A stretch of 39,498 nucleotides of DNA, from positions 1-39,498 of IMG/VR virus record IMGVR_UViG_3300031949_000096. One strand, given 5' to 3'. The notes under the pieces are model-generated. The model was given only the letters and a program-made list of their open reading frames with translations. It did no database searches and had not been told where the DNA came from. How positions within the stretch are numbered: the first letter of the stretch is position 1; each line of letters opens with the position of its first letter. Of this stretch, positions 6,352 through 19,914 are shown piece by piece. Source of the DNA: a virus. The translations under genes were made by a program, and so were the position numbers.

Positions 6352-6373
6352 TGTCAAGCCCCCACTGTCCACA
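6352..6373 (-). promoter_or_regulatory. Composite box-like element plus GCTTGACA upstream of the portal gene
   Basis: The minus strand reads TGTGGACAG-TGGGGGC-TTGACA, a 7/9 DnaA-box match with a 7-nt spacer ending in GC. It lies in the 69-nt TerL-portal intergenic region. The geometry matches 9486..9507 and 18339..18360. Confidence 0.45.
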
Positions 6374-8600: not shown

Positions 8601-8618
8601 GCGTTTATTCTAACCGCA

Positions 8619-9382: not shown

Positions 9383-9399
9383 GGTCTTCTCCTCTCGTT

Positions 9400-9454: not shown

Positions 9455-9467
9455 GTTACTGCTTTTC

Positions 9468-9507
9468 ATAATACCTCTAAAACCGTGTCAAGCCCGAGTT
9501 ATCCACA
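9468..9507 (-). promoter_or_regulatory. Leftward (late?) promoter candidate with a perfect DnaA box
   Basis: The minus strand reads TGTGGATAA (9507..9499)-CTCGGGC-TTGACA (9491..9486)-12 nt-TATTAT (9473..9468). The 12-nt spacing between the hexamers is non-canonical. Confidence 0.5.
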
Positions 9508-9553
9508 CGAGTTAGAGCCATCGTTTGCCTAAAATCACCCTATTTTCAGGATA

Positions 9554-9585
9554 TTGACAAAGTGCATTTGTTATAATGTATATAT
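9554..9585 (+). promoter_or_regulatory. Rightward promoter candidate
   Basis: TTGACA (9554..9559)-12 nt-TATAAT (9572..9577), followed by TGTATATAT. It lies in an AT-rich divergent intergenic region upstream of the plus-strand ORF at 9622. Confidence 0.45.
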
Positions 9586-9621
9586 GCGAGGTCGATTTTA
9601 TTGGCTCTAACTAACACTATT

Positions 9622-9807
9622 ATGCGTGTATATCATGTCAAAGTAGAGTGGCTTTATAAGGGCCGCTACCCGAAGACCTGGGAAGGTCGCGGCCAGGCGA
9701 GCACGCTGCAGGCGGCCATCGCCGCGGCGTCGCGCGACTGGAAGAAGCAGGGGCTCGCGCCCCGGGAGGTCTGCCGCCAGGCGACCGTGCGCGTCACGCT
9801 GGCTTAG
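9622..9807 (+). CDS. Small plus-strand hypothetical protein (61 aa)
   Basis: ATG inside track ORF 9601..9807; MRVYHVKVEWLYKGRYPKTWEGRGQAST... It converges on the HNH gene and overlaps its 3' end by 14 nt. Confidence 0.45.
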   Translation: MRVYHVKVEWLYKGRYPKTWEGRGQASTLQAAIAAASRDWKKQGLAPREVCRQATVRVTLA

Positions 9808-10291
9808 CCGAGTATTGGTTGCGGCCGCCGGAGAAGACATAGCTCATCTGCGACTTGGGGAGGAGCTCCAGGTTGGCGAGCTCGTTGTTGGCCGGGTTGC
9901 GGTCCCGGTGAAAGACACAATGGCCCGAGGGTATCGGGCCGTTTGCTTTCTCCCATACATACCAGTGCAGCAGCAGCCGGCGGCCGTTGACCGTGCCGCG
10001 GAGATGCCCGCCTTTGGTGAGAGTGAAGTTGATGCCGTCGACCACCTGCAGGCCTTTGAGCTTCTTGGTCCGCAGCGGGTAGCCTCGTGTATTAAAAATA
10101 TCGTAGACCGCCTGGCGCGTGCAGCCGTAGAGTTTGCCTATCGTGGCCAGCGACATCCCATCTTTATAGCAGTCGTACATCTCGGCGACTTTAAAATTAT
10201 TCTGTCGCTTCGGGTGCCGGTTGTAGCGTACTTGGTAGCCACGCTCCGGGTCCTTGTCGACGCGGGTGGGCCTTGGGGAGATGGTCCTCAT
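9794..10291 (-). CDS. HNH endonuclease with an N-terminal HTH
   Basis: 165 aa. The HNH motif reads HCVFHRDRNPANNELANLELL, and the HTH reads MSLATIGKLYGCTRQAVYDIF. Confidence 0.8.
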   Translation of the reverse strand: MRTISPRPTRVDKDPERGYQVRYNRHPKRQNNFKVAEMYDCYKDGMSLATIGKLYGCTRQAVYDIFNTRGYPLRTKKLKGLQVVDGINFTLTKGGHLRGTVNGRRLLLHWYVWEKANGPIPSGHCVFHRDRNPANNELANLELLPKSQMSYVFSGGRNQYSAKPA

Positions 10292-10476
10292 ACCAGGTTT
10301 ATACGCAGCCCATGGTGCTCTTGCAAGTGCCGGGAGACCATGTGCCGGTCGCCGTGGTAGCGCAGCATAAGCTGCCGGATGACCGAGAGGGCGTCTTCGG
10401 GCAGTGGAACGCTGCAGGGGGTCGTTTTGAGCGCCTGGATGCCCTTGTGGAAGTGGGGGCCTTGGAGCTTAGGCAT
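10288..10476 (-). CDS. Small hypothetical protein (62 aa)
   Basis: Internal ATG of track ORF 10288..10578. It has an 8-nt overlap with the upstream gene and an ATGA overlap with the HNH start. Confidence 0.55.
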   Translation of the reverse strand: MPKLQGPHFHKGIQALKTTPCSVPLPEDALSVIRQLMLRYHGDRHMVSRHLQEHHGLRINLV

Positions 10477-10771
10477 GGTCCGGGTCGATGGGCTTGATAC
10501 CCTCGGGCTCTCGGAGGAAGCGGGCCCGGGCCGCCGGCGCGTGCTGCAGCCACTCGAGCACGAGCGGGTCGTCGCCAAAAACTACTTTATAGCTGGGCTC
10601 GTGGTAGCCCTTCTTCATCCCGGTCAAAATCGCCGCGTGCTCCCAGGGCAGCATCTCGAGGCCACAGTTGTCCTGGTCCTCGCAGTAGTAGACGCGCCGC
10701 ATAAAGTTCGACGTCGTGAGCGTGCTCTCGCAGTTGGGGCAGCCGCCGGTGAGTATTCGTTTCCAGTCCAT
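10469..10771 (-). CDS. Zinc-ribbon protein (100 aa)
   Basis: Begins MDWKRILTGGCPNCESTL...YYCEDQDNCG. It is trimmed from track ORF 10469..11122 to the ATG that directly follows the upstream stop. Confidence 0.65.
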   Translation of the reverse strand: MDWKRILTGGCPNCESTLTTSNFMRRVYYCEDQDNCGLEMLPWEHAAILTGMKKGYHEPSYKVVFGDDPLVLEWLQHAPAARARFLREPEGIKPIDPDHA

Positions 10772-10772
10772 A

Positions 10773-11210
10773 CTAAAAATTGTTGAAGGCGTCGTCCACG
10801 GCCGCGAGCTCGGCCTGGCTCTGCACCCCGGTCCCCTCTTTGCTCGGCGTGCCGCCGATGCGCATAAAATATCCACGCGGCAAAAATATCTGCGCCCGGT
10901 GCGTGTTGAGTCCGTCCTTGAAGTGCAGAAAAGAGCCGTGCTCATGGAACACGGAGGAGCCCACCTGGTAGGTCGTGCCGGTCTCGGCGTCGATGACGCG
11001 GATGGTCGCTTTGATAGGCAGCAGCTGCTCGGTAAAGACCTGGGCGTCGATGCCCCAGGCGTCGAGCTTGCGGAAGAGGTGCTTGCTCTCCCGGACGTGC
11101 TTGGTAAAAATCCGGCGGCCATCGTCGAGGATGCCGATGAGGCGCTCGAAGTCGCCGTGCTTGATGGTGATGCCGCGGGGCTTGGTGTAGGTTATCTTTT
11201 TCTTTCTCAT
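10773..11210 (-). CDS. Hypothetical protein (145 aa)
   Basis: Begins MRKKKITYTKPRGITIKHGDFERL... The start forms an ATGA overlap with the upstream gene's stop. Confidence 0.65.
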   Translation of the reverse strand: MRKKKITYTKPRGITIKHGDFERLIGILDDGRRIFTKHVRESKHLFRKLDAWGIDAQVFTEQLLPIKATIRVIDAETGTTYQVGSSVFHEHGSFLHFKDGLNTHRAQIFLPRGYFMRIGGTPSKEGTGVQSQAELAAVDDAFNNF

Positions 11211-11383
11211 TTTTTTAGGCACTTCGGAGCGGTGCATAGGGTCTTCGTGCGGTCCGCCCAGGCGCAAGCGTGCGGGTAGTCGGCCACGATGCAGGCCCTC
11301 TCCTCGGTGCAGCCGCATTTGCGGCAGGTGCCCGGGAGCGAGCGGTACTTTTTCTTTTCGGGTGTTGAGGTACTAGAGGCCAT
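11207..11383 (-). CDS. Cys-rich small protein (58 aa), probably metal-binding
   Basis: Contains CRKCGCTEERAC...HAC...C...C, seven Cys in 58 aa. It overlaps the upstream gene by 11 nt. Confidence 0.6.
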   Translation of the reverse strand: MASSTSTPEKKKYRSLPGTCRKCGCTEERACIVADYPHACAWADRTKTLCTAPKCLKK

Positions 11384-11753
11384 AGCGTTTATAAAACTCG
11401 TCGACGAGGTCACCGGCGAGCCCGGCCAGTCGCTCTTCGACGTCCGGCGCGTCCTCGGTGGTGCACGGCACCGACCGCACCTTTTGCCGAGCGAGTATCG
11501 CGAGCGTCGCGTGTATCATCTCGTGGGCCACGATGCCGCGCGTGAGGTGCGTCTTTGAGAAGTAGATGATGGCCGCCTTCCCCGCCGGCATCCTGGCGCG
11601 CTGCGTTGCGCAGTAGGCCATGGTGTCGTTCGCGATGCCGCCGATGCGGTCCTTGCGGATGGCGCGCAGCATCTCCCGCTGGCTCGGATAGATGCGGCAC
11701 TCGACCTTGAGCTTCGTGCCCGGCGCCCGGAAGTTGATGACGTGAGTGACCAT
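11373..11753 (-). CDS. Putative zinc metallopeptidase (HExxH; resembles SprT/Wss1-like proteins by eye)
   Basis: 126 aa. GIVAHEMIHATL is the only HExxH motif in the window. Confidence 0.45.
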   Translation of the reverse strand: MVTHVINFRAPGTKLKVECRIYPSQREMLRAIRKDRIGGIANDTMAYCATQRARMPAGKAAIIYFSKTHLTRGIVAHEMIHATLAILARQKVRSVPCTTEDAPDVEERLAGLAGDLVDEFYKRYGL

Positions 11754-11789
11754 GTGCCCCTATTCTAACTCGGCCGCAAAGGCAGGTCG

Positions 11790-11798
11790 GGTGGATAA
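11790..11798 (-). promoter_or_regulatory. DnaA box, 8/9 match (TTATCCACC)
   Basis: The plus strand reads GGTGGATAA. It lies in the 111-nt gap between the CDSs ending at 11865 and starting at 11753. Confidence 0.4.
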
Positions 11799-11864
11799 CG
11801 TGTGCAAAACGCAGGGAGTCATCGGCCCGGTAGGAGAGCACCAGGAGCTTGCGGGCTGGCTGGG

Positions 11865-12401
11865 TCATAGTGCGAAGAGCGGCGCCGTAGAGGTCTCGAT
11901 GGGTGCGTACTCGCCGATGCGGTCGAGTTGCGTGTCGGAGAGGTCCCAGAAAGGCGTCTCGCGCTTGAGCAGCCCTCCGAAAGTCACACAGTCCTTCTCC
12001 TCCTCGAGGTAGTAGGCCTTATGCCCGGTGGTCTTGTCGATGATGGCGACGCGCGGCACGCTCTCGCCGCGGAGGAACCGTGCGCCCTTTTTGGTGAGTA
12101 GGTAAAAGCCGCGCTCCTCCATCGCGATGAGGCCGTGAAAGCGCGCCCGCGAGAGGTTACCCTCCATCTTGAAAGTCATCCAGCCGCCGGCGACCATGTC
12201 GCGGTAGCTCGAGAAGTCGCTCGCCGGCCGCACCATCTCATTGCCGACATGGACGAGGTTTTGCTTTTTGTCCCGGATGCGGTTGAAGATGGCCAGCACG
12301 ATGAGCGCAGTGCCGCGGTCGAGCGGGAGTGCGTACTCGGTCGTCTGCTTGCAGCAGGAGCACACATTTGGGATAAACTTTTTGCGCTTGGTGAGGCTCA
12401 T
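11865..12401 (-). CDS. Hypothetical protein (178 aa)
   Basis: A clean ORF with an N-terminal CSCC motif. I recognise no domain. Confidence 0.65.
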   Translation of the reverse strand: MSLTKRKKFIPNVCSCCKQTTEYALPLDRGTALIVLAIFNRIRDKKQNLVHVGNEMVRPASDFSSYRDMVAGGWMTFKMEGNLSRARFHGLIAMEERGFYLLTKKGARFLRGESVPRVAIIDKTTGHKAYYLEEEKDCVTFGGLLKRETPFWDLSDTQLDRIGEYAPIETSTAPLFAL

Positions 12402-12437
12402 ATCGCTGCGCCCCGAGAGAGGCGAAGCGGATGGGCC

Positions 12438-12737
12438 CTAGCGAAGCCAGGGGAGGACGTTCTGCGCGTACCACGCGGTGCGAGTGACGTCGTAGCAGCC
12501 TGCCGGGAAGAACCAGGGGCACACGAACGTGTGGCCGCGGCCGTCGGAGAACGACGTACCAGCAGCCACCTGGGGCGTCTGGTCGCCGGTGAGACCCCAG
12601 GGCATCGAGATGAGCCCCGGGTTGCCGTTACCGTTGCACTGCTCGGGCGTGATGTTGCAGTCGACCGCAGCGGAAGCCACCGAGGCGCCACCGAAGAGGA
12701 CTACTGCAAAGGCGAGAGCGAAAATTGCGTTTTTCAT
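12438..12737 (-). CDS. Secreted Cys/Trp-rich small protein
   Basis: 99 aa with the signal peptide MKNAIFALAFAVVLFGGASVASA-AVDC. The mature part has 4 Cys. Confidence 0.7.
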   Translation of the reverse strand: MKNAIFALAFAVVLFGGASVASAAVDCNITPEQCNGNGNPGLISMPWGLTGDQTPQVAAGTSFSDGRGHTFVCPWFFPAGCYDVTRTAWYAQNVLPWLR

Positions 12738-12911
12738 AGCAAAATTAAATTAAGTTGTTTCTAATATCGACCTTCGAGTGGAGGTGGTGGGAGTTGCACC
12801 CACTAGCCGGGCTACCGTCGGAGCCGCTCCTTGGGGGGTTGAGCTCCATCGCCGCGCGGGTTTTGAGGATAGAAAGCCTCATGCGGTCTACACCGCCTCA
12901 CCCCCGCGCGT

Positions 12912-13106
12912 CTACTTCTTCTCCACCCGGATGACCTCTAACGACTCGACCCACGCCTCACCTTTGCCCGCGAGCGGTGCTACTAGGTAGCGGTCGCGGT
13001 TGTAGGTGCGCTTGTAGTCGAGTATCTCCACCTTGACCTGCATCTTGCCCATCGTAATGAGCGCGTGCCGGCCGACGAGGCGGAGCTTGTCTTTCAGTCC
13101 GGGCAT
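12912..13106 (-). CDS. Small hypothetical protein (64 aa, beta-rich)
   Basis: Begins MPGLKDKLRLVGRHALITMGKMQVKVEILDYKRTY... This is the internal ATG of track ORF 12912..13187, so the start is uncertain. Confidence 0.5.
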   Translation of the reverse strand: MPGLKDKLRLVGRHALITMGKMQVKVEILDYKRTYNRDRYLVAPLAGKGEAWVESLEVIRVEKK

Positions 13107-13342
13107 ATTTCGATGTACTAGCTGGTAATGTCGAGACGGCCAGCTCACCCCACAGTAGTCATAGCGATGGGGTCTTGTGGCCCCCATGCGACGGTCCCCA
13201 CAAAGGTCCGGCTCGCTTTTCCATCATCCTCGCCGCACCCGAAGGTGCACTGGGTCATGCGCTCCCAGCTCGCAAAGTCGAAGGTAGGAACTCCTCGACT
13301 CCGGCGCTACTGTGTGAAGAGCTGGCTGCCTCTCTGCCCCTA

Positions 13343-13372
13343 TGTATATCACTATCCCTATAGGGATAGCAA
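13343..13372 (-). promoter_or_regulatory. Promoter candidate whose spacer carries most of an 18-bp perfect palindrome (operator candidate)
   Basis: The minus strand reads TTGCTA (13372..13367)-18 nt-TATACA (13348..13343) with TG two nt upstream of the -10. The palindrome CTATCCCTATAGGGATAG occupies 13352..13369. Confidence 0.5.
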
Positions 13373-13375
13373 GGG

Positions 13376-13394
13376 CCCGGTGTGGATAACCGGG
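13376..13394 (-). promoter_or_regulatory. Perfect DnaA box (13381..13389) embedded in a 6-bp inverted repeat
   Basis: The plus strand reads CCCGGT-GTGGATA-ACCGGG. TGTGGATAA is the reverse complement of TTATCCACA. Confidence 0.6.
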
Positions 13395-13435
13395 AGCTCA
13401 TTGTTTTTTCAGGTATATGGCGCTACCTTCACACG

Positions 13436-13618
13436 ATGCCCGGCAAGGAGGAGGACCCGCGCGAAGTGCTGCGACGCTGCGACCGCAACGAACTCCTCAC
13501 TATGCTGATACTCTCGGGTCTACTGATGGTGACATTTGCGGCAGGGGTGCAGCTGGGCGGATGGGCGAGCTCACTGCAGCCGGCAGAAGCGGCGGATAGT
13601 TCTTCTCCGTCCCGATGA
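13436..13618 (+). CDS. Small plus-strand membrane protein candidate (60 aa)
   Basis: MPGKEEDPREVLRRCDRNELLTMLILSGLLMVTFAAGVQLGGW... contains one TM helix. By my hand count, GC3 in the overlap with 13500..13814 is higher in this frame than in the opposing frame. No SD is visible. Confidence 0.4.
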   Translation: MPGKEEDPREVLRRCDRNELLTMLILSGLLMVTFAAGVQLGGWASSLQPAEAADSSSPSR

Positions 13619-13814
13619 GCTCGTAGAAAAGCCACAGGCTCTTCGGCTTGAAATGGTGCTGGATGTGCGGCTTGTCGATGCGCTTGCCTTTCGGCCGGTC
13701 GCCGCCGCGCGTTATCAAAATATCGTGCACCTCCGCTTTGCGGCCTTTGATGAGAGAGAGGCGGCGCCACACCTGGCCTTTGCATATCTTCGGGCCGGTG
13801 AGCTTTCTACTCAT
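13500..13814 (-). CDS. Hypothetical protein (104 aa); the C-terminal third may be read-through
   Basis: The N-terminal 70 aa look protein-like, and the start forms an ATGA overlap with the upstream gene. The last 30 aa or so are Pro/Ala/Ser low complexity and overlap the plus-strand ORF. Confidence 0.5.
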   Translation of the reverse strand: MSRKLTGPKICKGQVWRRLSLIKGRKAEVHDILITRGGDRPKGKRIDKPHIQHHFKPKSLWLFYELIGTEKNYPPLLPAAVSSPIRPAAPLPQMSPSVDPRVSA

Positions 13815-14320
13815 GGCTTAGTGTAGTCGGGCCCGCGGCGCATGACCTCGATGATTTGCTCGAGCGTGTAAGCATCCGGCACGTTCTCCAGCTTGACCGA
13901 GAAGGCGGGGTTGGTGACCACGATAAAGGCCTCCGGCGGCGTGCCCGGCGGCCGCAGCATCTGCAGCTGCAGGATGGTCTCGACACGCCCGGCGCCTTCC
14001 TCGGTGAGCATCACCTGCTGGAAGCGGTCGGAGTTGGGGATTATCTCCCACAGGATGACCACCTTGCGCTGGTAGAGCTCGCGTATAAGGCTCGAGGAGG
14101 CCTGTGCTCCGGCCGGGACGCTACCCTGGCCCATCTGCGACGCCGGCCACGGCACCATACTCGGCCGCTGCGGCTTAACCGAGAGGTCCACGACGGTCCA
14201 CTTGCAGGGAGCGACGTGGCCGTGCTCGATGGTGCAGCCTTCGTGGACGCTGCCCATGTTGCGACCCTCGCAAGTCGGGCAGTGCTTAGTGAGTTTTTTC
14301 GTGTGGCGTTTGGCTACCAT
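13811..14320 (-). CDS. Hypothetical protein (169 aa) with an N-terminal Cys/His cluster
   Basis: Begins MVAKRHTKKLTKHCPTCEGRNMGSVHEGCTIEHGHVAPC... It is trimmed from track ORF 13811..14509 to the ATG 4 nt after the upstream stop. Confidence 0.65.
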   Translation of the reverse strand: MVAKRHTKKLTKHCPTCEGRNMGSVHEGCTIEHGHVAPCKWTVVDLSVKPQRPSMVPWPASQMGQGSVPAGAQASSSLIRELYQRKVVILWEIIPNSDRFQQVMLTEEGAGRVETILQLQMLRPPGTPPEAFIVVTNPAFSVKLENVPDAYTLEQIIEVMRRGPDYTKP

Positions 14321-14324
14321 AAAA

Positions 14325-14537
14325 TTATTCGTCTTTCGGAGAGATGAGGATGTCGTTGTGCACGAGCTTTTTGCGCAGCACCCAGGCCACGATAGTCCAA
14401 AAGACCATTTTGCCCGAGACCGGCGTCTCGAAACTGGCGCGCATCTCCGGCACCCAGGCGCACGGTCCATCCTCATGCGGCGGCCGCCGGCAATAGCCGG
14501 GCTCTCCATGTGGATTTTGTTTGGTGCAGTGTTGCAT
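14325..14537 (-). CDS. Small hypothetical protein (70 aa)
   Basis: It has 4-nt gaps to both neighbours, several Cys/His residues and one hydrophobic segment. Confidence 0.55.
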   Translation of the reverse strand: MQHCTKQNPHGEPGYCRRPPHEDGPCAWVPEMRASFETPVSGKMVFWTIVAWVLRKKLVHNDILISPKDE

Positions 14538-14541
14538 AAAA

Positions 14542-15117: not shown

Positions 15118-15172
15118 GGTCTTGTCTTAAAACTCTATCATCACTTCGCGCTCGGACTAAGCGGCACCAGGC

Positions 15173-15207
15173 CAAAAAATCGCGGCGCGGAACTTGTTTA
15201 GGCCGCG
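15173..15207 (-). terminator. Intrinsic terminator candidate
   Basis: The minus strand reads CGCGGC-15 nt-GCCGCG followed by ATTTTTTGG. The stop codon at 15198 lies in the loop. Confidence 0.5.
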
Positions 15208-15389
15208 GCGGCCGCCACTCTCGGCCGTACTGTGAACAACGACACTTGACCCTCCGCCGGCTGGAGTCGCTCGCACTTCGCGCACGTCCTCGCTTTCGCC
15301 CGGGCATAGGAGAAGGCGATGCGCTTGTGGGTGCAGTGCTTGCAGGTGTAGGGATAGACGCTGCGCCGCTTTGTATCCCGGCTCCTCAT
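15198..15389 (-). CDS. Zinc-ribbon small protein (63 aa)
   Basis: Contains CKHC...CAKC. The start forms an ATGA overlap with the upstream gene. Confidence 0.6.
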   Translation of the reverse strand: MRSRDTKRRSVYPYTCKHCTHKRIAFSYARAKARTCAKCERLQPAEGQVSLFTVRPRVAAAAA

Positions 15390-16141
15390 ATGCTCCAGGA
15401 GTCTATCTCCCCCTTAATAAAGCGCTGGATGTTGGCGGCGCTCTTGCCCATTTTCTCCAGCTTCTCCCGGATGACTTTGTCACGCCCCTCGAGCACGACC
15501 TTCACGGCCTCCCCGATAGTCGCCGAGTCGTGCTTGTACGTTATGAGCTCCACCCCGGAGGCCGTCTCGAAGGCTTTGACCTTGTCCTGGAGGCTCTTGA
15601 GCTCTCGAGGGGCTATGCCTGCGCTCGAGGCGCCCACGGTCTTGCCCCGCTCGAACTCCTCGCTCATGCGGCCGGCGATGGTGGCCGAGGGTATCATCCC
15701 CTTCGTTAGGTTGCGCATGAGCGCCGCCAGGAAGCTCGCGTCTATGGGCTGCGGCGTGAGCTTGACCGCCTCTTTGATTATTTTGAGCCCGGTGCCGCTC
15801 GGCACGATGAGCCCCCACTTCTCCGGCAGCTCACCCAGCTGCACTATGTCCGGGTCTCCCACGACGATGTACCAGTAGTCGCAAAAGCAGGCGAGCTCGT
15901 CGGCCTTCTGCGGGTTGCGTATCTCTCGTATAAAATCCCCGCGGGAGACCTTGACCTCGAAGCCGGTGATGTGCAGCCCGCGACTCGGCCACAGGCTCAT
16001 CGCCATCGCGTCCATGGTCCGGGTCGCACTAAAGCCGGCGCCGTTGCGCACCTGCGTCAAAAAGCCATACTCGGGCTGCGAGTACCGCTTGGAGAGGCGC
16101 TCTATCACCTCGTCCGTGTTGAGTGTTTTCTTGACCCCCAT
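15386..16141 (-). CDS. PD-(D/E)XK nuclease, MmcB-like N-terminal domain
   Basis: 251 aa. RTMDAMAMSLWPSRGLHITGFEVKVSRGDF...CDYWYIVV matches the D...E-x-K core of MmcB-family proteins as I recall them. Confidence 0.6.
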   Translation of the reverse strand: MGVKKTLNTDEVIERLSKRYSQPEYGFLTQVRNGAGFSATRTMDAMAMSLWPSRGLHITGFEVKVSRGDFIREIRNPQKADELACFCDYWYIVVGDPDIVQLGELPEKWGLIVPSGTGLKIIKEAVKLTPQPIDASFLAALMRNLTKGMIPSATIAGRMSEEFERGKTVGASSAGIAPRELKSLQDKVKAFETASGVELITYKHDSATIGEAVKVVLEGRDKVIREKLEKMGKSAANIQRFIKGEIDSWSI

Positions 16142-16144
16142 AAA

Positions 16145-16303
16145 TTATTCCAGCAACAGCTGCACCTCCACCACCCGGCAGCCGACGCCGCCATCCAGGA
16201 GAGTTTTGGCCATCTGTTTCTCGGCCCACTTGCGCGAGTCGAAGAGCATACTGATTCGCAGCTCTCCGTCGGCACGCACGATAGCAAAATACTTTTTCTG
16301 CAT
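16145..16303 (-). CDS. Small hypothetical protein (52 aa)
   Basis: Begins MQKKYFAIVRADGELRISMLF... This is the internal ATG of track ORF 16145..16411, 1 nt after the upstream stop. Confidence 0.5.
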   Translation of the reverse strand: MQKKYFAIVRADGELRISMLFDSRKWAEKQMAKTLLDGGVGCRVVEVQLLLE

Positions 16304-16304
16304 A

Positions 16305-16463
16305 TTATTCCAGCTCCTCGAGCTCCTCCGGCTCTTCGTCGACCACCTCATCCTCCTCGAGGTCGTCCGGGTAGTTGATGCGGTCTTCGGCCACAGGCAC
16401 AGGCTCGCCAAAAAGAAAGGCTTTGATGCGGCCGGCTAGTGAGTAGTCCCGGTAGGTGACCAT
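16305..16463 (-). CDS. Small protein with a strongly acidic C-terminus (52 aa; not in the ORF track)
   Basis: My own translation is MVTYRDYSLAGRIKAFLFGEPVPVAEDRINYPDDLEEDEVVDEEPEELEELE. It has 1-4 nt gaps to its neighbours. Confidence 0.5.
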   Translation of the reverse strand: MVTYRDYSLAGRIKAFLFGEPVPVAEDRINYPDDLEEDEVVDEEPEELEELE

Positions 16464-16467
16464 AGAG

Positions 16468-16713
16468 TTATCCTTGGCCCGGCTCCGAGCGGTCCATTAT
16501 GCAATTCATCGCGAGCTCCGCCATGGCGCTGCGCGTCGTGCGACCTTTGCCGATAAAGAGGCGAGCCGCGCAGGTCTCGCTTTTGCCGACCACGATGCTG
16601 GCCTCCCACTCCGTGCTGCGGTTGTTGGTCTCGAGCTTAAAGCTGCAGGAGTCCGCCGTCGGGTGTCCCTCGAGAATCGCTTTTACTAGTGCCGGTGCGA
16701 TGTGGTCTATCAT
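16468..16713 (-). CDS. Small hypothetical protein (81 aa)
   Basis: Begins MIDHIAPALVKAILEGHPTADSCSFKLE... This is the internal ATG of track ORF 16468..16812. Confidence 0.55.
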   Translation of the reverse strand: MIDHIAPALVKAILEGHPTADSCSFKLETNNRSTEWEASIVVGKSETCAARLFIGKGRTTRSAMAELAMNCIMDRSEPGQG

Positions 16714-16717
16714 ATTT

Positions 16718-16879
16718 TTATCCGTTGCCCGGGTACTCGGCGTCCATCTGCTGCAGGAGGTCGCGCAGGTCGTTTTTGACCTTAATCGCGGCCATCTCCT
16801 TGCCCGAAGCATCGGCCCGGAGGGTATACTCCCGGTCCTCTACTTTGAGCTTAAATGTGAAGGTGGTGATGACGTCCAT
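16718..16879 (-). CDS. Small hypothetical protein (53 aa; not in the ORF track)
   Basis: My own translation is MDVITTFTFKLKVEDREYTLRADASGKEMAAIKVKNDLRDLLQQMDAEYPGNG. It has 4-nt gaps on both sides. Confidence 0.5.
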   Translation of the reverse strand: MDVITTFTFKLKVEDREYTLRADASGKEMAAIKVKNDLRDLLQQMDAEYPGNG

Positions 16880-16883
16880 GGTA

Positions 16884-17282
16884 TTAGTAGCGGCGCTCTC
16901 CCGGTCGACGTTCGCGCATAGGTCCGAAGTCCCCGCCGTCGCCTTGGTCTCGCCGCGGCTGCTGGCGCTCGGTGATGATGCGCTCGATGTCCTCGAAGGC
17001 CATGCCGTCCTTGCGCATCGACGCGCGCAGGGTCATGAAGAGCTCGTCCTCGAGCGCGCGGATGATGCCATCCTTAACGCCTAAAGACCGCTCGATGCGG
17101 CCGTTGGCTTGGATGCTCTCCCCTACGTTGCGCTCTGCACGCTCGACCTTGGCGTTTGCCTCGCGCACCTGGGTCTCCAGGTTGCCGACCGTGATGTTTT
17201 TGTGCTCGAGCCGCGTCTTGAGCTCGCGGTTTTCTGCGAGGAGCTGCCTGCGGGACTTTATTGTTGGTTTTTGCCGGGCCAT
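16884..17282 (-). CDS. Coiled-coil hypothetical protein (132 aa)
   Basis: Begins MARQKPTIKSRRQLLAENRELKTRLEHKNITVGNLETQVREANAKVERAE... It is trimmed from track ORF 16884..17645. Confidence 0.6.
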   Translation of the reverse strand: MARQKPTIKSRRQLLAENRELKTRLEHKNITVGNLETQVREANAKVERAERNVGESIQANGRIERSLGVKDGIIRALEDELFMTLRASMRKDGMAFEDIERIITERQQPRRDQGDGGDFGPMRERRPGERRY

Positions 17283-17296
17283 GATTTTAGAGGGGG

Positions 17297-17893
17297 TTAG
17301 TCCTGCTTGTAGATTTTGTAATCGCCGGCGAGTATCTCCTTGGCGAACTGGAGGCCGGTGTCGATGTCCTTGCGGCGGTCTTCCATCTTCTTCTTCGTGA
17401 CCACAATATCCTCCTCGGCGTTTTCGATTTGAGTGAGGATGCCGGCATCTTTGCCCTCTCCGTTGAGCTCGGCATCGAGCTCCTGGCGCTTCTTGGTGAT
17501 GCGAGCGCGCTCTTTTTGGTAGGCGGCGCGGCCCTCTTTGTCCTTCGCGTCGGTCGGCGCCTTGAGGTCCGCAAGCTCCTGGTCGAGTGCCGCTATCTCC
17601 GGCTCTATCTCCGCGGCGCGCGCCTTCTTCTCGTCGATGCGCCATGCGAACTGGCGTATCTTCATGTCGTCCTCGACGATGGCCTCGCGGTTGGCGCGGA
17701 TGTGCGAGTAGATGGTCTCGGCAGCGATGAAGGGAGCGATGGTGTCCGGCTCCGGCTTGTAGAGCACGACGATGCCCTCTTCTTTGAACTGCAGCGCCGG
17801 CATGGCGTCGGTGTGGTAGAGGTGCGCGGTCTGCAGGAACTGGTTGAGCTCATCCTGCTGGTCGTACTTAAAAACGCGGGTTTGAAGTGTCAT
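17297..17893 (-). CDS. Hypothetical protein (198 aa) with a charged coiled-coil C-terminal half
   Basis: A clean ORF and the second gene of the early leftward operon. Confidence 0.65.
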   Translation of the reverse strand: MTLQTRVFKYDQQDELNQFLQTAHLYHTDAMPALQFKEEGIVVLYKPEPDTIAPFIAAETIYSHIRANREAIVEDDMKIRQFAWRIDEKKARAAEIEPEIAALDQELADLKAPTDAKDKEGRAAYQKERARITKKRQELDAELNGEGKDAGILTQIENAEEDIVVTKKKMEDRRKDIDTGLQFAKEILAGDYKIYKQD

Positions 17894-17898
17894 ATAAA

Positions 17899-18291
17899 TT
17901 ATGCGAAGGCCGAAGCCGGGCTAAGGTTAATAGTCGATAGAACCGCTGCCGCACCAGGACCGCCACCGCTCGGGGCCGAGGGCATAGGTGCCGGGGCGCT
18001 GCCGCCGCCCGCACCCGACTCCCCGGTCCCTTTCTCCGGCACGTCGAGCTCGACCTCCACCTTCGGGAGGCCTAGCTTCTGCCCGGCTGCCCACGCGAGC
18101 GCCCGGATGGCGTTTGCGTTGGTGCCTTTCTTGCCGATGATGAAGCGCGCATCCGCCGGGTTGCAGCGGACGGTATAGACCAGCACTCCCTCCTCGAGTT
18201 TATGCGACACCGAGACGGCACCTTCGTCCGGCACAATGGCTTTCGCCAGCGTGGTGATGAGAGCGACGATGACGAGCTCGTTGGTATCCAT
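17899..18291 (-). CDS. KH-domain RNA-binding protein, KhpA/UPF0109-like, with a Gly/Pro/Ala-rich tail
   Basis: 130 aa. LVIVALITTLAKAIVPDEGAVSVSHK..LVYTVRCNPADARFIIGKKGTNANAIRALAWAAG matches the KhpA-type KH fold, including the GxxG loop (GKKG). It is the first gene of the early leftward operon. Confidence 0.7.
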   Translation of the reverse strand: MDTNELVIVALITTLAKAIVPDEGAVSVSHKLEEGVLVYTVRCNPADARFIIGKKGTNANAIRALAWAAGQKLGLPKVEVELDVPEKGTGESGAGGGSAPAPMPSAPSGGGPGAAAVLSTINLSPASAFA

Positions 18292-18338
18292 ACTTGCTGC
18301 TCATTGTACCCCCTGCTCCTGCAGGGCCAGCTGCGCGG

Positions 18339-18391
18339 TGTGGATAACTCATGCTTGACGCGCTTGACAGGTCAAGGGAGTCAAGTAAGAT
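18339..18391 (+). promoter_or_regulatory. Rightward promoter candidate with a perfect DnaA box
   Basis: TGTGGATAA (18339..18347)-CTCATGC-TTGACG (18355..18360)-CGC-TTGACA (18364..18369)-16 nt-TAAGAT (18386..18391). It lies in the divergent region between the KH gene and the plus-strand island. Confidence 0.55.
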
Positions 18392-18436
18392 GGAGGAAGG
18401 ACTGCCGCTTTAGAGCAGCCCGGCAACAAAACTATT

Positions 18437-18952
18437 ATGGGTAAAAAAACAGGAGCAGCTTTTGAGGTCCAGTACCGCGGGTACACCATTATTTTTAACG
18501 AGGGGGAGAAGTGGGAGACCCTGCTCAAGGGTGCGAAGCGCCCGGAGATGCACGAGAATATCAAGCGCGTGCAGGACGCCATCGACCGCTCTCTTCGTGG
18601 GGACTTCGAGCGCCTCCCGGTCTTTATCGAAAAGCGCAACGCAAACGGCTACGGCCGGAGCGGCCGCTACGAGAAGGCGACCATCACCTCCGTCGGCATC
18701 GACCGCGACGTATTTGTGCAGCGTGAGGGCCAAAAGCATACGGAGGCGCATAGCCACTACAACGGCGGCCTCTTCGTACAGAACCCTGCAAACGCCCAGC
18801 TCATCGCCGAGCTTCACGCCATCCAGGACGAGATAGAAACACTCGAGTCGAAGCGCCGCCAGGCCGCAGAAAAGTCCAGCCAAAAGGCCCGCAAGCTCCA
18901 GGTGGTCGATACCGAAAAGATAGTCGCTAAGGTCCTCGGCCCCGATGCGTAG
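18437..18952 (+). CDS. Hypothetical protein (171 aa), first gene of the rightward island
   Basis: A clean ORF with a coiled-coil C-terminal segment. I recognise no domain. Confidence 0.65.
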   Translation: MGKKTGAAFEVQYRGYTIIFNEGEKWETLLKGAKRPEMHENIKRVQDAIDRSLRGDFERLPVFIEKRNANGYGRSGRYEKATITSVGIDRDVFVQREGQKHTEAHSHYNGGLFVQNPANAQLIAELHAIQDEIETLESKRRQAAEKSSQKARKLQVVDTEKIVAKVLGPDA

Positions 18953-19091
18953 CTCGCTCTACAAAGAGCTCCGGGATGAGCGTATCGCTCGCCGGCAAGA
19001 GCGCGGCATCATCATATTTTTCTCGGTCGTCACCGTCCTACTCGCCTACTTGCTACTCATCTGCCTCGCCGCGGAGGGCCGCCTCTTCTAG
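18945..19091 (+). CDS. Small membrane protein (48 aa; not in the ORF track)
   Basis: My own translation is MRSSLYKELRDERIARRQERGIIIFFSVVTVLLAYLLLICLAAEGRLF. It has an 8-nt overlap with the upstream gene and one TM helix. Confidence 0.5.
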   Translation: MRSSLYKELRDERIARRQERGIIIFFSVVTVLLAYLLLICLAAEGRLF

Positions 19092-19093
19092 CC

Positions 19094-19339
19094 ATGAAAA
19101 AGAAAAAAACACTTGAGTCCCCGCGGGCGGCCGCTGCCGGCCACAAGGTCCTCCGGGCGCTGCTCAAAAACGACGGCCGCAGCTACGAAGAAATCGGCAA
19201 GGATGCCGGCATCTCGAAGCAGCGCGTCGGGCAGATAGCGAAGAGGCACGGCATCACCCGAGCACCGGCGCGCGGCGTGATGCAGGTCGCTTGCGTACAC
19301 TGCGGCCGGCAGACTCCTGCGGTGCCCACCATACGGTGA
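19094..19339 (+). CDS. HTH DNA-binding protein (81 aa), candidate transcription regulator
   Basis: RSYEEIGKDAGISKQRVGQIAKRHGI is a sigma-region-4-like or Cro-like HTH. The last 28 codons or so overlap the rusA 3' end on the opposite strand. Confidence 0.6.
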   Translation: MKKKKTLESPRAAAAGHKVLRALLKNDGRSYEEIGKDAGISKQRVGQIAKRHGITRAPARGVMQVACVHCGRQTPAVPTIR

Positions 19340-19688
19340 CCCGGATGCGCTTGTTGCTCGAGCGCACCTGCCGCAATAACACCCCCGCCACCTCGGCGGG
19401 GGTGTCGTCTTTCAGTACCCCGGCGTGGCGCAGTCCGTCCTCCACCATTTTCGCCATCGAGGAGAGGTTGAGGTTGTCGAGCGGCTTGCCCGGTATCTCG
19501 AAGAGGTACTCCACGAGCGGCAGCGGGTAGCTCGTGACCGGCGGCATCGACGTGCGCCGCACCGCCTCCCGGACCGCCAGGTAGAACGCCTGCTCGAGCG
19601 GGTATCGCTTCATCGCGTGCTTGCGGTAGAAGACGTTGGTCGAGACCTTCTCCGGGAGCTCGAGAGTGAGTTGGGGGGTCATGTGCAT
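19254..19688 (-). CDS. rusA: RusA-family Holliday junction resolvase
   Basis: 144 aa. GKPLDNLNLSSMAKMVEDGLRHAGVLKDDTPAEV matches the RusA D-x-DN...K...D...DD catalytic pattern. Confidence 0.75.
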   Translation of the reverse strand: MHMTPQLTLELPEKVSTNVFYRKHAMKRYPLEQAFYLAVREAVRRTSMPPVTSYPLPLVEYLFEIPGKPLDNLNLSSMAKMVEDGLRHAGVLKDDTPAEVAGVLLRQVRSSNKRIRVTVWWAPQESAGRSVRKRPASRRAPVLG

Positions 19689-19706
19689 ATTCTCTCTTAT
19701 ATAAAA

Positions 19707-19721
19707 CTACTATTACTATTA
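19707..19721 (-). repeat. Trinucleotide array TAA-TAG-TAA-TAG-TAG (DnaA-trio-like)
   Basis: The plus strand reads ctactattactatta. On the minus strand the array is preceded by CCCCACCCC and followed by TTTTATATAAGAGAGAAT. Confidence 0.5.
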
Positions 19722-19809
19722 GGGGTGGGGATAGCTCGGATAACTCACTTTTGCGTTGCCCTTCATATGTTTTTCAGGAAGTGCCGCTGGGGACAACGTG
19801 GGACCCGAC

Positions 19810-19829
19810 TGTGGATAAATTGTGGATAA
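19810..19829 (-). promoter_or_regulatory. Two perfect DnaA boxes in tandem, 11-bp register
   Basis: TGTGGATAA occurs at 19810..19818 and again at 19821..19829. Confidence 0.75.
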
Positions 19830-19830
19830 C

Positions 19831-19865
19831 AAAAGGGGAGCAAATGGCTATACCACTTGCTCCCC
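19831..19865 (-). terminator. Intrinsic terminator downstream of the DnaA-domain-IV gene
   Basis: The minus strand reads GGGGAGCAAGTGG-TATAG-CCATTTGCTCCCC, a 13-bp stem with one G-U pair, followed by TTTTGTT. Confidence 0.75.
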
Positions 19866-19890
19866 AGGTGTTTCACGCGAAACCCCCAGC

Positions 19891-19912
19891 TTATCCACAG
19901 GGGTTACCCACA
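19891..19912 (+). promoter_or_regulatory. Perfect DnaA box plus an 8/9 box, in the opposite orientation to the 19810 pair
   Basis: TTATCCACA at 19891..19899 and TTACCCACA at 19904..19912. They end 2 nt before the stop codon of the 19915..20247 gene. Confidence 0.7.
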
Positions 19913-19914
19913 GT

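What the first reader, a model, noticed from the sequence alone, without database searches (positions are those of the whole stretch)
9499..19899. All six perfect DnaA boxes lie in intergenic control regions and mark every strand switch
Seen: I scanned both strands by eye for TTATCC and GGATAA. Perfect TTATCCACA occurs six times (9499, 13381, 18339, 19810, 19821, 19891), and none is inside an annotated CDS. Of the three 8/9 matches, two are intergenic (11790 and 19904) and one lies in the last codons of a gene (3947).

The naive expectation for a given 9-mer on both strands of 39.4 kb is about 0.3 (2 x 39,371 / 4^9). It is lower for an AT-rich word in a GC-rich genome.

Each of the three plus-strand gene islands (9622, 13436, 18437) lies next to a perfect box in its upstream control region.

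Inference: the boxes form a regulon read by host DnaA and/or the phage domain-IV protein, coupling phage transcription to the host initiator state. They are not a single-origin feature.
Basis: partly seen in the sequence, partly recalled or inferred. Interest (0 to 1): 0.75.

Follow-up and report, generated by a model that had tools for sequence, protein, structure and literature searches.

The report
Phage DnaA boxes: origin plus promoters
A 39-kb phage genome carries six perfect copies of the site bound by the bacterial replication initiator DnaA: four form what looks like a miniature bacterial replication origin next to a phage gene for DnaA's DNA-binding domain alone, and the others sit just upstream of promoter-like sequences, a habit shared by a whole group of related uncultured phages.

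Summary
TTATCCACA occurs exactly six times, at the stated coordinates, against 0.04-0.08 expected. It is the most over-represented 9-mer in the window, and all six copies lie in the 7% of the genome that is non-coding. Two details are wrong: there are four 8/9 matches, not three, and the four-box cluster lies between two same-strand genes, not at a strand switch.

The boxes fall into two classes.

(1) The cluster at 19689-19914 follows a 110-aa DnaA domain-IV-only gene. It matches the sequence pattern of an oriC-type origin: two inverted pairs of strong boxes around a terminator hairpin, weaker same-orientation boxes, a GC spacer, seven DnaA-trio-like triplets, and the least stable DNA in the genome. 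Its first 66 nt are 94% conserved in a relative whose flanking genes are 83-88% identical. Box clusters follow the DnaA-IV gene in three of four more distant carriers.

(2) The solitary boxes sit 7-8 bp upstream of −35-like hexamers. Across 27 related viral loci, 37 perfect boxes occur against 4.4 expected, mostly intergenic and upstream of promoter-like sequences, and most of those loci lack the DnaA-IV gene.

The claim that this is not a single-origin feature holds for the solitary boxes, but the cluster itself looks like an origin. All function is inferred from sequence.

The parts
19915..20247 (-). Gene for a 110-aa standalone DnaA domain IV protein (DnaA-IV). Its start overlaps the stop of the FtsK-like/nuclease gene (20244-22397).
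   Evidence: Pfam PF08299 Bac_DnaA_C, E=6.5e-12, 45.7 bits against a cutoff of 31.5. Best PDB match is the M. tuberculosis DnaA DNA-binding domain 3pvp. dN/dS=0.16 against an 85%-identical homologue. Box-reading residues are nearly invariant in 111 short homologues.
19904..19912 (+). Box D1, 8/9 (TTACCCACA), starting 2 nt after the DnaA-IV stop codon.
   Evidence: It aligns to a perfect TTATCCACA in relative L006.
19891..19899 (+). Box D2, perfect. It forms a pair with D1, 4 bp apart.
   Evidence: Conserved in L006.
19835..19865 (-). Intrinsic-terminator-like hairpin (14 pairs) with a TTTTG tail that runs into box D3. It would end the RecT / FtsK-nuclease / DnaA-IV operon.
   Evidence: The part of its 5' arm covered by L006 is conserved.
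19821..19829 (-). Box D3, perfect.
19810..19818 (-). Box D4, perfect. It is in tandem with D3 (11-bp period) and inverted relative to D1/D2.
   Evidence: Inverted repeat I1 (arms 19798-19825 and 19884-19911).
19726..19743 (-). Two abutting weak boxes, TTATCCGAG (3 mismatches) and CTATCCCCA (2 mismatches), in the same orientation as D3/D4. A further weak box, TTGTCCCCA, lies at 19788-19796.
19702..19725 (-). GC spacer (CCC) followed by seven DnaA-trio-like triplets, CTA ATA GTA ATA GTA GTT TTA. On the other strand these read 3'-GAT TAT CAT TAT CAT CAA AAT-5'.
   Evidence: Fits the published BUS search pattern in the orientation verified on E. coli oriC. One such composite in the window against 0.01 expected. 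Similar runs follow the DnaA-IV genes of L022 and L033.
19683..19722 (.). Candidate DNA-unwinding element. It overlaps the trio run and reaches into the first codons of the RusA-like gene.
   Evidence: Least stable 30-mer and 40-mer duplex of the whole 39.5-kb window by nearest-neighbour energies.
18339..18347 (-). Solitary perfect box C, between a KH-domain gene (17899-18291, minus) and a 171-aa gene (18437-18952, plus).
   Evidence: Plus strand: TGTGGATAA-N7-TTGACG, and N16-TTGACA-16-TAAGAT (10/12 promoter match). Minus strand: TTATCCACA-N7-(-35 position)-17-TACAAT, 11 nt before the start codon.
13381..13389 (-). Solitary perfect box B, upstream of the minus-strand gene block that starts at 13187 and divergent from the 60-aa plus gene at 13436.
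   Evidence: Minus strand: TTATCCACA-N8-TTGCTA-18-TATACA preceded by TG. This is the same geometry as in relatives.
9499..9507 (+). Solitary perfect box A, between the minus-strand block that leads into the small and large terminase genes (9382 downwards) and the 61-aa plus gene at 9622.
   Evidence: Minus strand: TGTGGATAA-N7-TTGACA. TTGACA on the plus strand at 9554.
11790..11798 (-). 8/9 box (TTATCCACC) in the 111-nt gap upstream of gene 11373-11753. It lies 22 nt before a TAGAAT that is itself 8 nt before the start codon.
3940..3955 (-). 8/9 box (TGTGGATAG on the minus strand) followed after 1 nt by TTGACA, in the last codons of gene 3922-4293 and upstream of gene 3573-3902. Possible internal promoter.
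6352..6373 (-). Degenerate box (TGTGGACAG, 2 mismatches)-N7-TTGACA in the gap between the large terminase gene and the 669-aa gene. Same layout as boxes A and C.

Best explanation
The six perfect boxes are real binding sites for a DnaA-type helix-turn-helix, and they do two jobs.

(1) The cluster at 19689-19914 is the phage's replication origin, built like a small bacterial oriC. On the minus strand, after the DnaA-IV stop codon, it contains in order: a pair of boxes, the operon terminator, an inverted pair of perfect boxes, then progressively weaker boxes in the same orientation, a GC spacer, seven DnaA-trio-like triplets, and the least stable DNA in the genome. Host ATP-DnaA would bind the boxes, extend onto the trios, open the AT-rich element and recruit the host helicase. 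No phage initiator, helicase, primase or polymerase was recognisable.

(2) The solitary boxes (9499, 13381, 18339, probably also 11790, 3947 and the degenerate 6365) lie 7-8 bp upstream of -35 positions, where minus-strand transcription restarts and where the small plus-strand islands diverge. They make those promoters responsive to DnaA. The sign of the effect (activation or repression) is unknown. The geometry, just upstream of -35 with variants one helical turn apart in relatives, is typical of activators.

(3) The 110-aa DnaA-IV protein keeps the residues that read the box but has no AAA+ or helicase-loading domains, so it can occupy boxes but cannot unwind DNA. Most likely it competes with or modulates host DnaA at these sites and at the host oriC.

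What is shown: sequence presence, enrichment, location, conservation, domain identity. What is inferred: every binding and functional step.
For: Enrichment and placement.

DnaA-IV identity, purifying selection and conserved reading head.

Origin reading. The anatomy fits the published BUS pattern (PMC8287927), with orientation checked on E. coli oriC. The composite occurs once against 0.01 expected. The least stable 30/40-mer in the window is at 19683-19722. There are no iterons or tandem repeats elsewhere in the early region. The 66 nt after the stop codon are 93.9% identical in L006, against 83-88% for flanking coding DNA with dS about 0.58. DnaA-IV genes sit in the same place in L022, L026, L031 and L033. 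Clusters of three or more sites follow the DnaA-IV gene in the window, L022 and L026 (L033 has two sites there), and otherwise occur only in L029 and at one further L026 site. Runs of (TA[AG])>=4 occur four times in about 520 kb, three of them just downstream of DnaA-IV genes. L022 reads TTATCCCCA-N6-CTACTACTATTACTACTA. Pfam and PHROGs found no phage replication initiator.

Promoter reading. TGTGGATAA-like-N0-20-TTGAC[AG] occurs 5 times against 0.41 expected, reached by 0 of 200 simulations. A 10/12 promoter sits next to box C. In relatives there are 37 boxes against 4.4 expected, 28 of 37 intergenic. Fourteen of 41 boxes have a >=9/12 promoter within 65 nt downstream on the coding strand, against 3 of 37 in the other direction and 1.9% at random positions, with box-to-(-35) distances of 2-5, 9-10 and 19-20 nt.
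Against: No experimental data exist, and the host is unidentified, so its DnaA-box consensus and promoter rules are assumed. The two boxes nearest the trios are weak (2 and 3 mismatches), and the strong boxes lie 65-190 bp away. The NAN-trio pattern is permissive: any AT-rich (TAR)n run satisfies it on both strands, and in AT-rich relatives the pattern gives many chance hits. L031 has a DnaA-IV gene but no box cluster, and L029 has a cluster but no DnaA-IV gene. Many ORFs are unannotated, so a hidden phage initiator with a different origin cannot be excluded. In the window itself the -10 elements beside boxes A and D are unclear, and TTGACA-to-(-10) spacings are irregular (12-21 nt). The promoter control used random positions, which are mostly coding, rather than intergenic ones. 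Close-relative conservation could be tested for region D only. Olleya phage Harreka_1 encodes a DnaA HTH protein but shows no box enrichment, so a DnaA-IV gene does not by itself imply boxes.
Confidence: 0.55

Rival explanations
1. A pure phage regulon. All boxes, the cluster included, are operators of the phage's own DnaA-IV protein, which acts as a dedicated repressor or activator that times expression of the transcription units. Host DnaA and replication are irrelevant.
For: The gene is present, under purifying selection, and keeps the box-reading residues. The boxes lie beside promoter-like elements. The box cluster co-occurs with the DnaA-IV gene in relatives. Standalone DnaA-IV proteins form a sizeable family.
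Against: About 22 related phage loci have promoter-proximal perfect boxes but no detectable DnaA-IV gene. The exact 9-mer is preserved across relatives with 30-61% GC, which fits a universal host reader. This reading does not explain the trio run and the minimum of helix stability next to the cluster.
Confidence: 0.15
2. A DnaA sink and host shut-off. The high-affinity boxes, multiplied by phage copy number, together with DnaA-IV occupying the host oriC, titrate or block host DnaA and stop host replication. Their position in non-coding DNA only reflects where a 9-mer can be placed freely.
For: The sites are perfect consensus sites, the highest-affinity form. A truncated DnaA lacking AAA+ and domain I is the expected form of a competitive inhibitor. 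By analogy, the E. coli datA locus titrates or inactivates DnaA through a box cluster (my own knowledge, not tested here).
Against: Free placement would not give the preferred distances and orientations relative to -35/-10 elements, nor the BUS-type arrangement. This reading could still be true as an additional effect.
Confidence: 0.12
3. A T5-like anchoring signal. The inverted pairs of boxes around the hairpin tether the incoming or replicating genome to membrane-bound DnaA, for injection pause, partition or packaging, rather than starting replication.
For: T5-like phages carry conserved pairs of DnaA boxes 3 bp apart within inverted repeats in non-coding DNA, proposed there as an injection-stop signal (bioRxiv 10.1101/866236). 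In the window the pairs are 4 and 2 bp apart and form an inverted repeat around a hairpin.
Against: The T5 model is itself untested. The window assembles as a circle with no identified termini. The adjacent trio and AT-rich module and the linkage to a DnaA-IV gene are not features of the T5 iss.
Confidence: 0.05
4. Chance or compositional artefact: AT-rich intergenic DNA simply contains the word more often.
For: Intergenic regions are more AT-rich (43-57% GC) than coding DNA.
Against: Expected 0.04-0.08 copies genome-wide against six observed. It is the top 9-mer of 26,631. About 2.7 kb of intergenic DNA at 50% GC would give about 0.02 copies. The sites are conserved in L006 and enriched about 8-fold across 27 related loci.
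Confidence: 0.01

Closest known systems
Bacterial oriC with the basal unwinding system (DnaA boxes, GC spacer, DnaA-trios, AT-rich element; Richardson 2016 / Pelliciari 2021, PMC8287927), typically next to dnaA
   Same: A box cluster in one orientation leads through a short GC spacer to at least three NAN triplets and the least stable DNA. It lies directly downstream of a dnaA-derived gene, as the B. subtilis dnaA-dnaN origin does. The orientation equals that of E. coli R1 relative to 13-mer R.
   Different: It is on a 39-kb phage. The neighbouring gene encodes domain IV only. The boxes next to the trios are weak. An intrinsic terminator sits inside the cluster. Origin activity is untested.
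DnaA as a transcription factor (E. coli dnaA, nrdAB and mioC promoters; activation of the phage lambda pR promoter by DnaA; my own knowledge; lambda context in PMC3985674, listed but not read)
   Same: Single consensus boxes lie next to promoters, consistent with transcription tied to the host initiator.
   Different: Here the boxes are a genome-wide feature of a whole group of phages, at preferred distances upstream of -35 (9-10 or 19-20 nt). In lambda a few boxes lie downstream of one promoter. A phage-encoded box-binder is also present in some members.
DnaA boxes that assist plasmid and phage origins with their own Rep initiator (P1 oriR, pSC101, F, RK2; my own knowledge)
   Same: A mobile element uses host DnaA boxes at its origin.
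   Different: Those origins have iterons and a Rep protein. No iterons and no Rep-like protein were found here. The layout is oriC-like instead.
T5-like phage injection-stop region with eight paired DnaA boxes (bioRxiv 10.1101/866236)
   Same: Conserved pairs of boxes arranged around inverted repeats in phage non-coding DNA.
   Different: The T5 boxes lie in the terminal repeat, far from the replication origins, with no trio module, no DnaA-IV gene and no promoter-associated solitary boxes.
Standalone Bac_DnaA_C (PF08299) proteins, e.g. the 'DnaA protein' gp24 of Olleya phage Harreka_1
   Same: A short protein made of the DnaA helix-turn-helix with the D-H-T-T signature.
   Different: Harreka_1 shows no box enrichment: it has one box, inside a CDS. 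The window's protein is linked to a box cluster and has no PHROG family.

Membership tests
DnaA box (9-bp consensus TTATCCACA) | Exact or near-exact match to the consensus, present more often than composition predicts | tested here: met
   Six 9/9 and four 8/9 sites. Expected 0.04-0.08 perfect sites.
DnaA box (9-bp consensus TTATCCACA) | Bound by DnaA domain IV | not testable with these tools
   Needs EMSA, DAP-seq or ChIP with host DnaA and the phage protein. The host is unknown.
oriC-type origin with basal unwinding system | A DnaA box with at most 2 mismatches lying 0-16 bp from the trios, optionally with a second box of at most 4 mismatches beside it | tested here: met
   CTATCCCCA (2 mismatches) lies 3 bp from the first triplet, and TTATCCGAG (3 mismatches) abuts it.
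oriC-type origin with basal unwinding system | At least three NAN trios (consensus 3'-GAT-5') on the correct strand relative to the box | tested here: met
   Seven triplets, the first being 3'-GAT-5'. Orientation as in E. coli R1-N13-CTAATAAGA. Caveat: the pattern is permissive.
oriC-type origin with basal unwinding system | Adjacent AT-rich, easily melted element | tested here: met
   19683-19722 is the least stable 30/40-mer of the window.
oriC-type origin with basal unwinding system | Cluster of several further DnaA boxes | tested here: met
   Three perfect boxes, one 8/9 box and three weaker boxes within 190 bp.
oriC-type origin with basal unwinding system | DnaA-dependent unwinding, and replication starting here | not testable with these tools
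   Needs unwinding assays and marker-frequency analysis.
DnaA initiator protein (full length) | AAA+ domain III and helicase-loading domain I | tested here: not met
   The protein is 110 aa, and Pfam matches Bac_DnaA_C only. It is a domain IV protein, not an initiator.
Bac_DnaA_C / DnaA domain IV (PF08299) | Profile match above the curated cutoff, and conservation of DNA-contact residues | tested here: met
   45.7 bits against a cutoff of 31.5. The equivalents of R399, R407, D433, H434, T435 and T436 are conserved; P423 is A and H439 is N (E. coli numbering from memory).
DnaA-regulated promoter | Box overlapping or adjacent to a functional promoter | tested here: inconclusive
   Consensus-like -35/-10 elements lie next to boxes in the window and in relatives, but no transcription start sites are known.
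DnaA-regulated promoter | Transcription changes with DnaA level or box mutation | not testable with these tools
   Needs reporter fusions or RNA-seq.
T5-type iss DnaA-box array | Pairs of boxes 3 bp apart inside inverted repeats in the terminal-repeat non-coding region | tested here: inconclusive
   The pairs are 2 and 4 bp apart and form an inverted repeat. The genome termini are unknown because the assembly is circular.

The most novel reading that the evidence does not exclude
A lineage of uncultured phages captured the 3' end of a bacterial dnaA gene together with the adjoining oriC unwinding module. It now replicates from a portable mini-oriC fired by host DnaA. The retained domain-IV-only protein acts as a dominant-negative box-binder that silences the host origin and retunes a family-wide set of DnaA-box promoters. 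A more speculative variant is that DnaA-IV serves as the missing sequence-reading module for the gamma-less FtsK-like translocase/nuclease, whose gene overlaps its start codon.
Probability: 0.3. Interest if true: 0.85.

Novelty: new variant of a known kind. Interest (0 to 1): 0.68.

Why it matters
DnaA boxes are known in a few phage and plasmid origins and near lambda pR. I found no description of either feature seen here (literature searches; absence from that library is not proof). The first is a phage group in which the host initiator's site is a recurrent element upstream of promoters across genomes of 30-61% GC. The second is a phage carrying an oriC-style box-trio-AT module next to a standalone DnaA domain IV gene.

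If true, the phage ties both its replication and its transcription to the host's initiator. That would be a direct read-out of host growth state and a way to take over initiation without encoding an initiator. It would also assign a testable role to a sizeable, unnamed family of roughly 100-130-aa DnaA-IV proteins (324 cluster representatives). Finally, it would offer a compact natural substrate for studying the basal unwinding system.

Tried and rejected
(1) No close relative among cultured phages. Megablast of 9000-20500 against INPHARED found nothing. tblastn with the FtsK-like protein found only the ATPase half at no more than 38% identity. tblastn with DnaA-IV found only a weak hit to Olleya phage Harreka_1, which turned out to be a negative control.

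(2) Exact look-ups of the window's proteins did not retrieve the source contig, so neither provenance nor host could be learned.

(3) The genome-contig scan with the FtsK-like protein found no prophage relative. The metagenome scan gave only distant relatives.

(4) I tried to recover the close relative's versions of regions A-C with a concatenated query of flanking proteins. The candidate list saturated and nothing scored. The last homology search, with the 171-aa protein, returned only the window's own protein. Conservation in a close relative could therefore be tested for region D only.

(5) The single-sequence AlphaFold model of DnaA-IV was poor (pLDDT 55), so I did not use it or run a fold search.

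(6) I first read the trio run as TAA-TAG on the box strand and took L022 to be reversed. Checking E. coli oriC showed that the canonical frame is CTA-type on the TTATCCACA strand. The window fits in either frame, and L022 fits best.

(7) TTTTCAGG occurs three times, always in box-bearing gaps, but the enrichment is weak (expected 0.86; 7 of 100 shuffles reach 3). I did not pursue it.

(8) The GC-skew profile gives no origin signal because nearly all genes are on one strand.

(9) Rfam and tRNA scans found nothing.

Full report
**Observation**

An exact search finds TTATCCACA six times, at 9499(+), 13381(-), 18339(-), 19810(-), 19821(-) and 19891(+). Dinucleotide shuffles predict 0.04 copies, and none of 100 shuffles reaches six. 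With one mismatch allowed there are four further sites: 3947, 5821, 11790 and 19904. In an unbiased scan of all 9-mers against a third-order Markov model, TTATCCACA is the most over-represented word in the window (n=6, expected 0.08, P=3.7e-10). The three solitary boxes share the extended form G-TTATCCACA-C.

The window is about 61% GC. Its first and last 127 nt are identical, so it is a circular assembly of a 39,371-bp genome. It encodes a large terminase, RecT, a RusA-like resolvase and an HNH endonuclease. It has no close relative among deposited phages.

**Gene map**

Real genes show GC1>GC2 and GC3 of about 0.8-0.9. Nearly all are on the minus strand. There are three small plus-strand islands: 9622-9807, 13436-13618 and 18437-19339. 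Non-coding gaps total 2,729 nt, or 6.9%. All six perfect boxes lie in these gaps. Mechanical ORFs that overlap them have no coding signature.

The cluster at 19810-19912 lies between two minus-strand genes. The three convergent strand switches have no box. So 'every strand switch' is not correct.

**The phage DnaA-like gene**

ORF 19915-20247 (minus strand, 110 aa) matches Pfam Bac_DnaA_C above the curated threshold and matches nothing else. Its start overlaps the stop of a 717-aa protein that joins a PD-(D/E)XK nuclease to an FtsK/SpoIIIE ATPase and has no gamma domain. It aligns to the DNA-binding domains of M. tuberculosis and Aquifex DnaA. It keeps the equivalents of E. coli R399 and R407 and the D433-H434-T435-T436 signature. 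P423 is A and H439 is N. The E. coli numbering is from my memory.

An exhaustive HMMER search finds 324 cluster representatives at E<=1e-3. Of the best 150, 111 are 150 aa or shorter, so the nearest relatives are other standalone proteins rather than cellular DnaA. In those 111, the reading residues are nearly invariant: R 91%, R 100%, D 90%, H 97%, T/S about 98%. Against an 85%-identical homologue (P0002, on the 967-bp contig L006), dN/dS is 0.16 with dS of 0.58. The protein is therefore functional, and it very probably binds DnaA boxes. Lacking the AAA+ domain and domain I, it cannot act as an initiator.

**Anatomy of the cluster (region D), read on the minus strand**

1. Stop codon of DnaA-IV.
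2. After 2 nt, TGTGGGTAA (8/9), then CCCC, then TGTGGATAA.
3. A conserved 24-nt stretch.
4. A 14-pair terminator hairpin (19865-19835) with a TTTTG tail.
5. TTATCCACA-AT-TTATCCACA.
6. TTGTCCCCA (2 mismatches).
7. TTATCCGAG (3 mismatches) abutting CTATCCCCA (2 mismatches).
8. CCC.
9. CTA ATA GTA ATA GTA GTT TTA.
10. TATATAAGAGAGAATATGCAC.
11. The ATG of the RusA-like gene.

The published search pattern for the oriC basal unwinding system has four requirements: a box with at most 2 mismatches, an optional second box with at most 4, a spacer of 0-16 bp (most often 13, including a GC-rich element of about 4 bp), and at least three NAN trios of consensus 3'-GAT-5' (PMC8287927). I fixed the orientation by reading E. 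coli oriC directly: 5'-TTATCCACA(R1)-N13-CTA ATA AGA-3'. Region D fits in that orientation, and its first trio is exactly 3'-GAT-5'.

The composite with at least seven triplets occurs once in the window, against 0.01 expected. The least stable 30-mer and 40-mer duplexes of the whole window are at 19692-19721 and 19683-19722, that is, the trio and AT-rich element. No iterons or tandem repeats that might mark another origin exist in the early region. No initiator, helicase, primase or polymerase was recognised, though many ORFs have no annotation.

**Conservation of the cluster**

L006 ends 65 nt past its DnaA-IV stop codon. Those nucleotides read TGTGGATAAccccTGTGGATAA followed by the same conserved stretch. 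The non-coding segment is 93.9% identical, while the flanking coding DNA is 83-88% identical. The window's 8/9 box aligns to a perfect box there.

A profile of the FtsK-like protein recovered 27 distinct related viral or metagenomic loci (40-60% amino-acid identity, 30-56% GC). A small domain-IV HMM, then Pfam, found standalone DnaA-IV genes of 104-122 aa in four of them (L022, L026, L031, L033), always directly after the FtsK-like gene.

Clusters of at least three sites with at most one mismatch occur at these places:

- Window: 332 nt past the FtsK-like gene end.
- L022: 332 nt past it.
- L026: 355 nt past it (seven sites), plus a second three-site cluster about 743 nt upstream of the gene start.
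- L029: 207 nt past it. This locus has no DnaA-IV gene.
- L033 has only two sites at this threshold, 492 nt past the gene end.

L031 has a DnaA-IV gene but no cluster. Runs of (TA[AG])>=4 occur four times in about 520 kb, and three of them lie in the non-coding DNA after DnaA-IV genes. L022 reads TTATCCCCA-N6-CTA CTA CTA TTA CTA CTA, a near-textbook unwinding module. The DnaA-IV gene and a box-rich non-coding region with a trio-like run therefore travel together in most carriers. This is the layout of bacterial dnaA next to oriC.

**The solitary boxes**

On the strand that is transcribed:

- Box A: TGTGGATAA-N7-TTGACA, leading into the block that contains the terminase genes.
- Box C: TGTGGATAA-N7-TTGACG, and N16-TTGACA-16-TAAGAT, on the plus strand (a 10/12 promoter match). 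On the minus strand it reads TTATCCACA-N7-(-35 position)-17-TACAAT, 11 nt before the KH-domain gene.
- Box B: TTATCCACA-N8-TTGCTA-18-TATACA with an upstream TG.
- The 8/9 site at 3947 and a 7/9 site at 6365 repeat the 'TGTGGATAA-like, then TTGACA' layout.

That layout occurs five times, against 0.41 expected, and none of 200 simulations reaches five. The -10 elements in this GC-rich genome are not clear, and TTGACA-to-(-10) spacings vary from 12 to 21 nt. Promoter assignments inside the window are therefore tentative.

**Family-wide pattern**

The 27 related loci (about 480 kb) hold 37 perfect boxes against 4.4 expected. Twenty-eight of them fall in the roughly 8% of sequence left non-coding by a crude ORF caller. 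Read in context, most sit just after a stop codon and upstream of a clear promoter. Examples:

- TTATCCACA-N9-TTGCAA-17-TAGAGT
- TTATCCACA-N10-TTGCCG-17-TATACT
- TTATCCACA-N20-TTGACA-17-TATACT
- TGTGGATAA-N3-TTGATG-18-TATAAT

Fourteen of 41 boxes have a >=9/12 promoter within 65 nt downstream on the main coding strand. The figure is 3 of 37 in the other direction and 1.9% at random positions. Box-to-(-35) distances cluster at 2-5, 9-10 and 19-20 nt. The two larger classes differ by one helical turn, as expected for a factor that must face RNA polymerase.

About 22 of these loci have no detectable DnaA-IV gene, and the word is kept exactly across very different base compositions. The shared reader is therefore most simply host DnaA. 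Olleya phage Harreka_1, which encodes a DnaA HTH protein, has a single box, inside its tape-measure gene. A DnaA-IV gene alone does not predict boxes.

**Interpretation**

I conclude that the finding joins two things.

First, there is an oriC-like origin module linked to the DnaA-IV gene (confidence about 0.55-0.6).

Second, there are DnaA boxes just upstream of promoter-like sequences, marking where transcription units restart. This is a trait of the whole phage group (about 0.65).

The role of the DnaA-IV protein, as competitor or modulator of host DnaA at these sites and at the host origin, is inference only.

Three alternatives cannot be excluded as additional or alternative functions: the boxes serve only as operators for the phage protein, they act as a DnaA sink, or they act as a T5-like anchoring signal. 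Each explains less of the anatomy. Chance is excluded.

**Limits**

- The host is unknown.
- There are no transcription or replication data.
- Close-relative conservation could be tested for region D only.
- The trio pattern is permissive.
- The promoter statistics use a simple consensus and a crude gene caller.
- The structure model was too poor to use.

Noticed in passing
window 1-127 and 39372-39498: The first and last 127 nt are identical, so the window is a circularly closed assembly with a unique length of 39,371 bp. Genes at the two ends belong to one continuous structural block.
   Followed up: yes
window 18354-18385: Nested palindrome CTTGAC-gcg-CTTGAC-ag-GTCAAG-gga-GTCAAG overlapping the plus-strand promoter next to box C. 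It may be an operator for another regulator, or a cruciform.
   Followed up: partly
window 13352-13369: Perfect 18-bp palindrome CTATCCCTATAGGGATAG in the spacer of the putative minus-strand promoter beside box B. The half-site CTATCCC recurs at 19728 and 24716 in other non-coding gaps.
   Followed up: partly
window 9511-9519 and 9603-9611: The 9-bp inverted repeat GTTAGAGCC / GGCTCTAAC, each arm unique in the window, brackets the plus-strand promoter region of the 61-aa gene.
   Followed up: partly
window 9543, 13406, 19771 (+ strand): TTTTCAGG occurs three times, always on the plus strand and always in a box-bearing gap (expected 0.86; 7 of 100 shuffles reach 3). Its meaning is unknown.
   Followed up: partly
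window 8601-8614, 11754-11769, 24670-24685, 18292-18310 (minus strand): -10-like hexamers (GTTAGAATA twice, TAAAAT, TACAAT) lie only 6-11 nt before start codons. This suggests leaderless or very short-leader mRNAs, a habit of Deinococcus-Thermus and actinobacterial hosts. The host was not identified.
   Followed up: no
window 20244-22397 (-): A 717-aa fusion of an N-terminal PD-(D/E)XK nuclease with an FtsK/SpoIIIE ATPase lacking a gamma domain. It is conserved at 40-60% identity in at least 27 viral contigs of 30-61% GC and is the hallmark gene of this phage group. Its function is unknown.
   Followed up: partly
window 9400-9470: Strong GC hairpin (GCGCCCGG...CCGGGCGC) with T-rich flanks on both strands, between box A and the start of gene 9020-9382. 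It may be a bidirectional terminator or a structured leader.
   Followed up: no
L022:8543-8563, L032:8770-8789, L033:9107-9127: A conserved AATACGAAATC(G/A)T element lies between the DnaA box and the -35 hexamer of the syntenic promoter about 1-1.5 kb upstream of the FtsK-like gene. It may be a second operator.
   Followed up: no
window 23038-23177: The gap upstream of RecT is the syntenic place where many relatives have a perfect box. In the window it holds only 2-mismatch versions (TTATCCCCT, GTGTCCACA, CTAACCACA) around a CCCCTTCGGGGG hairpin.
   Followed up: partly
window 30907-30939 and 36616-36834: Short in-frame tandem repeats (GCCACCACC; CCTCCA/ACC) inside structural genes, giving low-complexity protein stretches.
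   Followed up: no
L014 (Olleya phage Harreka_1, MT732457.1): This phage encodes a 145-aa 'DnaA protein' HTH next to an adenine methyltransferase gene, but it has a single TTATCCACA, inside the tape-measure gene. Standalone DnaA-IV proteins evidently have more than one mode of use.
   Followed up: partly
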